64,000 bases of DNA from positions 14,912,001 through 14,976,000 of the forward strand of contig CP068257.2 of NCBI GenBank assembly GCA_009914755.4. Direction: 5' to 3'. How positions within the stretch are numbered: the first letter of the stretch is position 1; each line of letters opens with the position of its first letter. This document shows positions 57,785-58,977 of the stretch, in pieces. The notes under the pieces are model-generated. The model was given only the letters and a program-made list of their open reading frames with translations. It was not told the DNA's origin and made no database searches. Made by a program: the position numbers and the translations under genes. The stretch comes from the human T2T-CHM13v2.0 reference genome, Homo sapiens.

Positions 57785-58127
57785 ATGGGGTTGTTTGTTT
57801 TTTTCTTGTAAATTTGTTTGAGTTCATTGTAGATTCTGGATATTAGCCCTTTGTCAGATGAGTAGGTTGCGAAAATTTTCTCCCATTTTGTAGGTTGCCT
57901 GTTCACTCTGATGGTAGTTTCTTTTGCTGTGCAGAAGCTCTTTAGTTTAATTAGATCCCATTTGTCAATTTTGGCTTTTGTTTCCATTGCTTTTGGTGTT
58001 TTAGACATGAAGTCCTTGCCCATGCCTATGTCCTGAATGGTAATGCCTAGGTTTTCTTCTAGGGTTTTTATGGTTTTAGGTCTAACGTTTAAGTCTTTAA
58101 TCCATTTTGAATTAATTTTTGTATAAG
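57785..58127 (-). mobile_element. Young L1PA insertion, 5' INVERTED segment (ORF2 codons ...[12 protein letters not shown] ... KKKTNNPI)
   Basis: Minus-strand ORF 57760-58152 translates to [123 protein letters not shown]. This is L1 ORF2 sequence immediately upstream of the [11 protein letters not shown] block. The nucleotide sequence is a near-exact match to the antisense L1PA consensus (ttgtagattctggatattagccctttgtcagatgagtag...ggtctaacgtttaagtctttaatccattttgaattaatttttgtataaggtg). Confidence 0.85.
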
Positions 58128-58977
58128 GTGGGCGAAGGACATGAACAGACACTTCTCAAAAGAAGACATTTATGCAGCCAAAAAATACATGAAAAAATGC
58201 TTACCATCACTGGCCATCAGAGAAATGCAAATCAAAACCACAATGAGATACCATCCCACACCAGTTAGAATGGCAATCATTAAAAAGTCAGGAAACAACA
58301 GGTGCTGGAGAGGATGTGGAGAACTAGGAACACTTTTACACTGTTGGTGGGACTGTAAACTAGTTCAACCATTGTGGAAGTCAGTGTGGCGATTCCTCAG
58401 GGATCTAGAACTAGAAATACCATTTGACCCAGCCATCCCATTACTGGGTATATACCCAAAGGACTATAAATCATGCTGCTATAAAGACACATGCACATGT
58501 ATGTTTATTGTGGCACTATTCACAATAGCAAAGACTTGGAACCAACCCACATGTCCAACAATGATAGACTGGATTAAGAAAATGTGGCACATATACACCA
58601 TGGAATACTATGCAGCCATAACAAAGGATGAGTTCATGTCCTTTGTAGGGACATGGATGAAATTGGAAATCATCATTCTCAGTAAACTATCGCAAGGACA
58701 AAAAACCAAACACCGCATGTTCTCACTCGTAAGTGGGAATTGAACAATGAGAACACATGGACACAGGAAGGGGAACATCACACTCTGGGGACTGTTGTGG
58801 GGGGGGGAGATGGGGGAGGGATAGCATTAGGAGATATACCTAATGCTAAATGACGAGTTAATGGGTGCAGCACACCAGCATGGCACAGGTATACATATGT
58901 CACTAACCTGCACATTCTGCACATGTACCCTAAAACTTAAAGTATAATAATAATAAAATAAATAATTTTAAAAAAAA
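58128..58977 (+). mobile_element. Young L1PA insertion, DIRECT 3' segment (ORF2 C-terminus, 3' UTR and poly-A)
   Basis: gtgggcgaaggacatgaacagacacttctcaaaagaagacatttatgcagcc..., with an intact ORF 58141-58743 encoding [79 protein letters not shown]...[20 protein letters not shown] (L1 ORF2p C-terminal Cys-rich region). The 3' UTR carries the G-rich tract gggggggggagatgggggagggatagcattaggagatatacctaatgctaaatgacgagttaatgggtgcagcacaccagcatggcacaggtatacatatgtcactaacctgcacattctgcacatgtaccctaaaacttaaagtataataataataaaataaataatttt plus A9. Confidence 0.9.
58141..58743 (+). pseudogene. Truncated L1 ORF2 C-terminal reading frame (200 codons, open, non-autonomous remnant)
   Basis: The translation matches the last ~200 aa of L1 ORF2p to the native stop. 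No upstream endonuclease or RT domains are present in cis, because they are inverted or truncated. Confidence 0.85.

What the first reader, a model, noticed from the sequence alone, without database searches (positions are those of the whole stretch)
57785..58977. Twin-primed (5'-inverted) young L1PA insertion with a 3-bp microhomology junction and a 6-nt loss between the two arms
Seen in sequence. The minus strand at 57785-58127 encodes the ORF2 peptide [12 protein letters not shown]...[14 protein letters not shown]. The plus strand from 58128 encodes the very next residues, (W)[14 protein letters not shown]..., through the native stop, the 3' UTR and poly-A. So two L1 segments that are adjacent in the element lie head-to-head here. 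The junction reads gtataag-GTG-ggcgaagg, where GTG is shared by both arms. L1 nucleotides caaaaa, between ...aacaaccccat and gtgggcg..., are absent from both arms. Established knowledge: this is the structure produced by twin priming during target-primed reverse transcription (inversion with a small deletion or duplication, as described for a sizeable minority of human L1 insertions). Both arms are near-identical to the young L1PA consensus, whereas the adjacent old L1 (56050-57700, same strand as the inverted arm) is strongly diverged. The inverted arm therefore belongs to the young element and not to the old one. The insertion sits exactly at the 5' truncation point of the old L1.
Basis: partly seen in the sequence, partly recalled or inferred. 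Interest (0 to 1): 0.55.

Follow-up and report, generated by a model that had tools for sequence, protein, structure and literature searches.

The report
Ordinary twin-primed (5'-inverted) L1 insertion
This is a routine 5'-inverted copy of a fairly young primate L1 retrotransposon, made when reverse transcription started at two points on one L1 RNA; it is a common, well-described insertion type and nothing new.

Summary
Window 57785-58130 (minus strand) is L1 ORF2 residues 955-1069. Window 58128-58969 (plus strand) is ORF2 W1072 through the native stop and the 3' UTR, followed by an A8 run (58970-58977). Against 43 primate L1 contigs found as contaminants in prokaryote assemblies, the two arms map to abutting L1 coordinates: 5222->4877 inverted and 5229->end direct on reference contig L011. 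GTG (58128-58130) is shared by both arms, and exactly CAAAAA (K1070-K1071) is missing. Both arms are young (98-99% and 96-98% identity; private changes 2/346 and about 13/823, not significantly different). The neighbouring old L1 is 69% identical and overlaps the inverted arm in L1 coordinates, so the arm is not part of it.

I add three points, held with less confidence than the core. A 10-bp direct repeat AAAGAAATGG (57779-57788 and 59081-59090) is the likely target-site duplication. Its last 4 nt (ATGG) pair with L1 RNA at the internal priming site. The roughly 100 bp between the A8 run and the right repeat end in AATAAA, 19 nt, then A10, which suggests a short 3' transduction; no source locus was found.

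The claim that the insertion sits exactly at the old L1's 5' truncation point is not supported. This is a known kind of event and of low interest.

The parts
57779..57788 (+). Left copy of the candidate 10-bp target-site duplication, AAAGAAATGG. Its last 4 nt (57785-57788, ATGG) also match L1 (rc of CCAT) and so form the microhomology at the 5' junction.
   Evidence: Exact 10-mer repeat found. Any 10-mer ending at the boundary recurs in 1.1% of random 241-nt chunks of the window. L1 identity starts at 57785.
57785..58130 (-). Inverted 5' arm: L1 ORF2 residues 955-1069 (L011 coordinates 5222->4877, about L1 nt 4.85-5.19 kb). The reading frame is open.
   Evidence: (97.7-99.4% identity to the full-length reference copies).
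58128..58130 (.). GTG, the 3-bp microhomology at the inversion junction, shared by both arms.
   Evidence: base-by-base comparison with L011 on both registers.
58128..58969 (+). Direct 3' arm. It holds ORF2 W1072-N1275 with the native stop (58129-58743) and the 3' UTR (58744-~58969). The UTR is of the CTAAATGACGAGTTAATGGG type, not L1HS-Ta.
58970..58977 (+). A8 run directly after the L1 3' UTR. It is either the element's own short tail or the tail of the progenitor copy.
   Evidence: sequence.
58978..59018 (+). Non-L1 segment T1 (GGCCAACTTGTGAAGCTAAAACCAGC, 58978-59004) followed by A14 (59005-59018). It is possibly an earlier or serial 3' transduction.
   Evidence: It has no similarity to the L1 references or to the rest of the window apart from A-runs.
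59019..59065 (+). Non-L1 segment T2, with AATAAA at 59041-59046, 19 nt before the final A-run. It is a candidate transduced flank of the source element.
   Evidence: Only 1 of 37 A>=9 runs in the window (taken to be this one; one search gives the count only) has a poly(A) signal 10-30 nt upstream, against a background of 5% of positions.
59066..59080 (+). Terminal poly(A) tail: A10 followed by GAAAG, a (GAAA)-type tail degeneration.
59081..59090 (+). Right copy of the candidate target-site duplication, AAAGAAATGG.
56410..57555 (-). Context only, not part of the insertion: an old, strongly diverged L1 3' portion interrupted by an Alu at about 56893-57195. It reaches L011 position 5147 at 57555.
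   Evidence: (69% identity).

Best explanation
This is a single retrotransposition event of a young but non-human-specific L1PA element, resolved by twin priming. What is shown: two fragments that are contiguous in L1 lie head-to-head, separated by a 6-nt gap in L1 coordinates, with 3 bp of shared sequence at the join and equal, low divergence. What is inferred is the mechanism, as follows. L1 endonuclease nicked the bottom strand at 5'-TTCTTT/ATATTC-3', and the T-rich 3' end primed cDNA synthesis on the poly(A) tail. That first cDNA reached L1 nt ~5229 (L011 coordinates). The top strand was then cut 10 bp downstream. Its 3' end, ...AAAGAAATGG-3', annealed through ATGG to CCAU inside the same RNA (L011 ~5219-5222) and primed a second cDNA, which ran 5'-ward to nt 4877. 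After the RNA was removed, the two cDNA 3' ends were joined at the 3-nt GTG/CAC complementarity. The result is TSD - inverted 5222->4877 - direct 5229->3' end - tail - TSD, with CAAAAA lost between the priming point and the stop point of the first cDNA. The RNA probably carried about 90 nt of read-through flank (T1/T2) polyadenylated at a downstream AATAAA, which would make this a 3' transduction. The copy is 5'-truncated, rearranged and inert.
For: The arms map to ORF2p 955-1069 (inverted) and 1072-1275 (direct). They map to L011 5222->4877 and 5229->end. The GTG overlap and the CAAAAA gap are confirmed base by base. Private substitutions are 2/346 in the inverted arm against ~13/823 in the direct arm (Fisher p=0.25), and both reading frames are open, consistent with one event. 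The old L1 is 69% identical and overlaps the inverted arm in L1 coordinates. An exact 10-bp repeat abuts the inverted arm on the left and follows an A-rich tail on the right (~1% by chance), and its last 4 nt are complementary to the L1 RNA at the priming site. AATAAA lies 19 nt before the last A-run, a 5% background feature seen at only 1 of 37 A-runs in the window. [quoted passage not shown]
Against: No empty orthologous site or source locus could be retrieved, so neither the TSD nor the transduction is independently confirmed (all returned nothing). The 10-mer is A-rich, and when the position of the left copy is not constrained, a repeat of that length is not unusual (80 of 500 shuffles). 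The direct arm looks somewhat more diverged than the inverted arm (p=0.08 if near-private sites are counted). This may reflect subfamily-diagnostic sites that the reference set does not represent. The subfamily could not be typed because no Dfam or RepeatMasker tool was available.
Confidence: 0.92

Rival explanations
1. The twin-primed L1 ends at the A8 run (58977). The segments 58978-59080 are pre-existing target DNA, the AAAGAAATGG repeat is a coincidence, and the insertion has no recognisable TSD. The twin-priming core is the same; only the 3' boundary differs.
For: The 10-mer is A-rich and not significant if the left position is unconstrained. No source locus for T1/T2 was found. The first A-run directly follows the L1 3' UTR.
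Against: No repeat of 7 nt or more links the left boundary to the sequence after the A8 or A14 runs. 5'-inverted L1s almost always carry TSDs of 10-17 bp (PMC2912911). The repeat's left copy ends exactly at the L1 boundary (~1% by chance). Its right copy follows a tail with a correctly spaced AATAAA (5% background).
Confidence: 0.22
2. An ordinary 5'-truncated L1 (starting at nt ~4877) inserted first, and its first ~350 bp were later inverted in place by a DNA-level rearrangement with two breaks and end joining.
For: The final arrangement would be the same as the one observed. It cannot be formally excluded from one sequence.
Against: It requires one breakpoint to coincide to the base with the L1/flank boundary. 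It does not explain the 4-nt complementarity between the flank end and L1 RNA. Twin priming is frequent (PMC2912911), whereas such micro-inversions are rare.
Confidence: 0.03
3. The arms are two independent elements. Either the inverted arm is the continuation of the old minus-strand L1, or it is a separate young L1 insertion (or a second RNA, as in 'dual priming').
For: The inverted arm has the same strand as the old L1. Dual priming has been proposed in the literature (PMC2837659).
Against: The old L1 is 69% identical to young L1, against 99% for the arm. It already contains L1 positions 5147-5222, which the arm repeats. An independent minus-strand insertion would carry its own 3' end and poly(A), which is absent. 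The 6-nt adjacency of the two arms in L1 coordinates would be a coincidence of about 0.3% (inference).
Confidence: 0.02
4. T1+A14 and/or T2+A10 are separate, severely 5'-truncated retrocopies of cellular mRNA 3' ends. They landed later in the L1 poly(A) tail and were not carried on the L1 RNA.
For: A-tails are preferred L1 endonuclease targets (established knowledge). T2 has an mRNA-like AATAAA and tail. Two internal A-runs are present.
Against: It needs two or three events where one suffices, and no TSDs of their own are visible. It is not distinguishable from transduction with the data at hand.
Confidence: 0.08

Closest known systems
L1 5' inversion by twin priming (Ostertag & Kazazian 2001, cited from my own knowledge; described in PMC2837659 and PMC2912911)
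   Same: The inverted 5' segment and direct 3' segment come from one L1. There is a small internal deletion (6 nt), microhomology at the inversion junction (3 nt) and at the 5' junction (4 nt), an A-tail, a candidate 10-bp TSD and a T-rich endonuclease site.
   Different: Nothing material. The TSD sits at the short end of the usual 10-17 bp range, and the 3' end carries extra non-L1 sequence.
L1 3' transduction (Moran 1999; Goodier 2000; Pickeral 2000, cited from my own knowledge)
   Same: Non-L1 sequence lies between the L1 3' UTR/short A-run and a terminal poly(A) that follows AATAAA by 19 nt, with the TSD only after that second tail.
   Different: The source locus was not identified. The internal A14 run suggests either two serial transductions or an A-rich flank. 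The segment is short (about 90 nt).
Twin-priming variants with 5' poly(T), and 'dual priming' (Meyer et al. 2010, PMC2837659)
   Same: Both involve two priming events at one staggered break.
   Different: Here the inverted part is internal L1 sequence contiguous with the direct part. It is not an inverted poly(A) and not a second RNA.

Membership tests
Twin-primed (5'-inverted) L1 insertion | Two segments of L1 in opposite orientation, with the 5' segment inverted relative to the poly(A)-bearing 3' segment | tested here: met
   57785-58130 lies on the minus strand and 58128-58969 on the plus strand.
Twin-primed (5'-inverted) L1 insertion | The 3' end of the inverted segment and the 5' end of the direct segment are adjacent in L1 coordinates (small deletion or duplication) | tested here: met
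   L011 5222 against 5229, with 6 nt (CAAAAA) missing. At protein level I1069 against W1072.
Twin-primed (5'-inverted) L1 insertion | Both segments derive from the same RNA (same subfamily and age) | tested here: inconclusive
   Private changes are 2/346 against ~13/823, p=0.25, which is compatible. Formal subfamily typing with Dfam or RepeatMasker was not possible.
Twin-primed (5'-inverted) L1 insertion | Target-site duplication flanking the whole composite | tested here: inconclusive
   An exact 10-bp repeat lies at 57779-57788 / 59081-59090 (~1% by chance with the left position fixed). It is not significant when unconstrained, and no empty site was available.
Twin-primed (5'-inverted) L1 insertion | Microhomology at the 5' junction (top-strand primer to L1 RNA) and often at the inversion junction | tested here: met
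   ATGG (4 nt, given the TSD) and GTG (3 nt). These match the distribution in PMC2912911.
Twin-primed (5'-inverted) L1 insertion | 3' poly(A) and an L1-endonuclease-type target (TTTT/AA-like on the bottom strand) | tested here: met
   A-runs lie at 58970-77, 59005-18 and 59066-75. The bottom-strand site inferred from the TSD is CTTT/AT, a degenerate match; this is an inference that depends on the TSD.
L1 3' transduction | Non-L1 sequence between the L1 3' end and the terminal poly(A), ending at a downstream polyadenylation signal, inside the TSDs | tested here: met
   AATAAA at 59041-46, a 19-nt gap, then A10. This is conditional on the TSD call.
L1 3' transduction | The same sequence is found immediately downstream of a progenitor L1 elsewhere in the genome | not testable with these tools
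   No primate genome was available. Exact-pattern scans of the viral and metagenome collections returned 0 hits.

The most novel reading that the evidence does not exclude
The 3' end carries two nested transductions (T1+A14, then T2+A10). That would tag a two-step lineage of source L1PA elements and allow the progenitor and grand-progenitor loci of this twin-primed copy to be traced.
Probability: 0.3. Interest if true: 0.15.

Novelty: already known. Interest (0 to 1): 0.1.

Why it matters
It matters very little beyond annotation. 5'-inverted L1s make up about 10% of all human L1 copies and about 30% of recent ones (PMC2912911). This copy is a clean, textbook example in which all junctions can be read to the base, so it could serve as a teaching case or a test case for annotation software. 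If the 3' tag is a transduction, it could identify the source element. The copy itself is truncated, rearranged and non-autonomous.

Tried and rejected
1. I looked up the junction-spanning 130-aa ORF and the 200-aa ORF2 C-terminal ORF by exact sequence, hoping to find the same locus in other assemblies. Neither is on record.
2. I scanned for the intact L1 junction in viral contigs and found 0 hits. The genome-contig scan gave the 43 reference copies used here.
3. I scanned for T1 and T2 in the metagenome and viral collections to find a source locus. All four scans returned 0 hits. BLAST of T1/T2 and both flanks against the window and the L1 contigs found only A-run matches.
4. I tried to extend the old L1 up to the insertion point. 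Local alignments of 57556-57784 to L1 4301-5300, and to the colinear part of the inverted arm, score no better than shuffles, and tblastn with ORF2p finds nothing there.
5. I considered other TSD candidates. Nothing of 7 nt or more follows the A8 or A14 runs. TGAATATAAAGA / TGAA-ATAAAGA (57771-83 / 59037-48) was rejected because the right copy does not follow a tail. AAAAAAAAGG at 58970-79 matches the 10-mer at only 8 of 10 positions and is low-complexity (read from the sequence).
6. The Ostertag & Kazazian 2001 paper is not in the held library.
7. The bacterial promoter/terminator scan of the tail region was irrelevant.

Full report
**Observation**

- The minus-strand ORF 57760..58152 reads [21 protein letters not shown]...[21 protein letters not shown]. 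It aligns to the solved human LINE-1 ORF2p chains (8sxt/8uw3 numbering) over residues 954-1069, after which it leaves L1.
- The plus-strand translation from 58129 aligns end to end with ORF2p 1072-1275 and ends at the native stop at 58741-58743.
- K1070 and K1071 are the only residues encoded by neither arm.

**Nucleotide-level test**

No repeat library was available, so I fetched real L1 copies. An exact scan for the uninterrupted L1 20-mer AACCCCATCAAAAAGTGGGC in the prokaryote species-genome collection returned 43 contigs. These are human-type L1 sequence, that is, contamination. Several are about 6 kb with an intact 1275-codon ORF2.

BLASTN of the window against them gave the following:

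| Window segment | L011 coordinates | Identity |
|---|---|---|
| 57785-58130 (inverted arm) | 5222->4877 | 97.7-99.4% across the full-length copies |
| 58128 onward (direct arm) | 5229 onward | ORF part up to 97.7%; 3' UTR up to 96% |

A base-by-base comparison in both registers shows three things:
- The inverted arm matches through 58130 (...GTATAAGGTG).
- The direct arm matches from 58128 (GTGGGCGAAGG...), so GTG at 58128-58130 is shared by both arms.
- L1 bases 5223-5228 (CAAAAA) are absent from both arms.

**Age of the arms and relation to the old L1**

I aligned the reconstructed element with 25 reference copies.
- The inverted arm has 2 changes of 346 that no reference shares.
- The direct arm has about 11-16 of 823.
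- The difference is not significant (Fisher p=0.25, or 0.08 if near-private sites are counted).
- Both reading frames are open.
- The 3' UTR carries CTAAATGAC-GAG-TTAATGGG. Seven references share this string exactly. It differs from the ACA (L1HS-Ta) type seen in two references. The element is therefore young but not human-specific L1HS. I could not type it further.

The neighbouring minus-strand L1 is only 69% identical to young L1. It spans ORF2p roughly 1044-1275, with L011 position 5147 falling at window 57555. It therefore already contains L1 positions 5147-5222, which the inverted arm repeats.

Detectable homology stops at 57555, and 57556-57784 is indistinguishable from shuffled sequence when compared with L1.

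A repeat search found an exact 10-mer, AAAGAAATGG, at 57779-57788 and again at 59081-59090.
- The left copy ends exactly where L1 identity begins. Its last four bases (ATGG) are also L1 sequence (rc of CCAT).
- The right copy follows an A10 run plus GAAAG.
- With the left copy tied to the boundary, such a repeat occurs in 1.1% of random 241-nt chunks of the window. Unconstrained, it is unremarkable.
- No alternative repeat follows the first (A8, 58970-77) or second (A14, 59005-18) A-run.

The sequence between A8 and the right repeat is made of T1 (26 nt) + A14 + T2 (47 nt) + A10.
- T2 contains AATAAA (59041-46) 19 nt before the A10.
- Only about 5% of positions in the window have a poly(A) signal hexamer in that position range.
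- Only 1 of 37 A>=9 runs in the window has one. The script reported the count only; I take that run to be this one.

Taken together, the most economical reading is a 10-bp TSD enclosing an L1 RNA that read through into about 90 nt of the source locus's flank, that is, a 3' transduction, possibly a serial one. I could not find the source. Four collection scans returned nothing, which is expected because no primate genome is searchable here. I put this sub-claim at about 0.7.

**Mechanism**

What is shown is the architecture. The steps below are inferred.
1. The bottom strand is nicked at TTCTTT/ATATTC, which is L1-endonuclease-like.
2. The first cDNA is primed on the poly(A) tail and stops at L1 ~5229.
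3. The top strand is nicked 10 bp downstream.
4. Its 3' end, ...AAATGG, pairs with CCAU inside the same RNA and primes a second cDNA from 5222 to 4877.
5. The two cDNA ends are joined at GTG/CAC.

[quoted passage not shown] The numbers also fit the survey of 639 human- and chimpanzee-specific 5'-inverted L1s. In that survey 95% have microhomology at the 5' junction, mostly 2-5 bp; microhomology at the inversion junction is common; TSDs are 10-17 bp; and about 31% of recent and about 10% of all L1 copies are 5'-inverted (PMC2912911).

**Rivals**
- An in-place inversion of the 5' end of a normally truncated copy would give the same map. It needs a breakpoint exactly at the element's end, and it leaves the ATGG complementarity unexplained.
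- Two independent elements, or dual priming with a second RNA, would make the 6-nt adjacency a coincidence of roughly 0.3%.
- T1/T2 could be pre-existing target DNA, or later micro-retrocopies in the tail. These remain open for the 3' boundary only.

**Verdict**

The finding is real and correctly interpreted, and it is ordinary: a textbook twin-primed L1PA insertion, probably with a short 3' transduction. Novelty: already known. Interest: about 0.1.

Noticed in passing
L001-L043 (e.g. L011 = LZSC01000001.1, 7387 bp; L013 = BMRF01000060.1; L029 = CANKZF010000005.1): Forty-three contigs filed under bacterial or archaeal species genomes are primate L1 sequence, mostly 93-99% identical to the window. 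Several are full-length with an intact ORF2. This is human DNA contamination in public prokaryote assemblies.
   Followed up: partly
PDB chain 9d2f_J residues 286-353 (hit from window 58177-58380): A solved-structure chain named Cilia- and flagella-associated protein 61 matches the L1 ORF2p C-terminal segment at E=1e-9. This suggests an L1-derived stretch in that deposited sequence.
   Followed up: no
window 57090-57125: The Alu inserted in the old L1 (about 56893-57195) contains a perfect 17-bp tandem duplication, TGGCTGGTCTCGACTCC x2.1.
   Followed up: no
window 56005-56043: The tail of the upstream Alu has become a perfect (AAAT)9.8 microsatellite, directly abutting the 3' side of the old minus-strand L1 region.
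   Followed up: no
window 57556-57784: The 229-bp stretch between the detectable end of the old L1 and the young insertion has no similarity to L1 or to anything else in the window. Its origin (very diverged L1 or unique DNA) is undetermined.
   Followed up: partly
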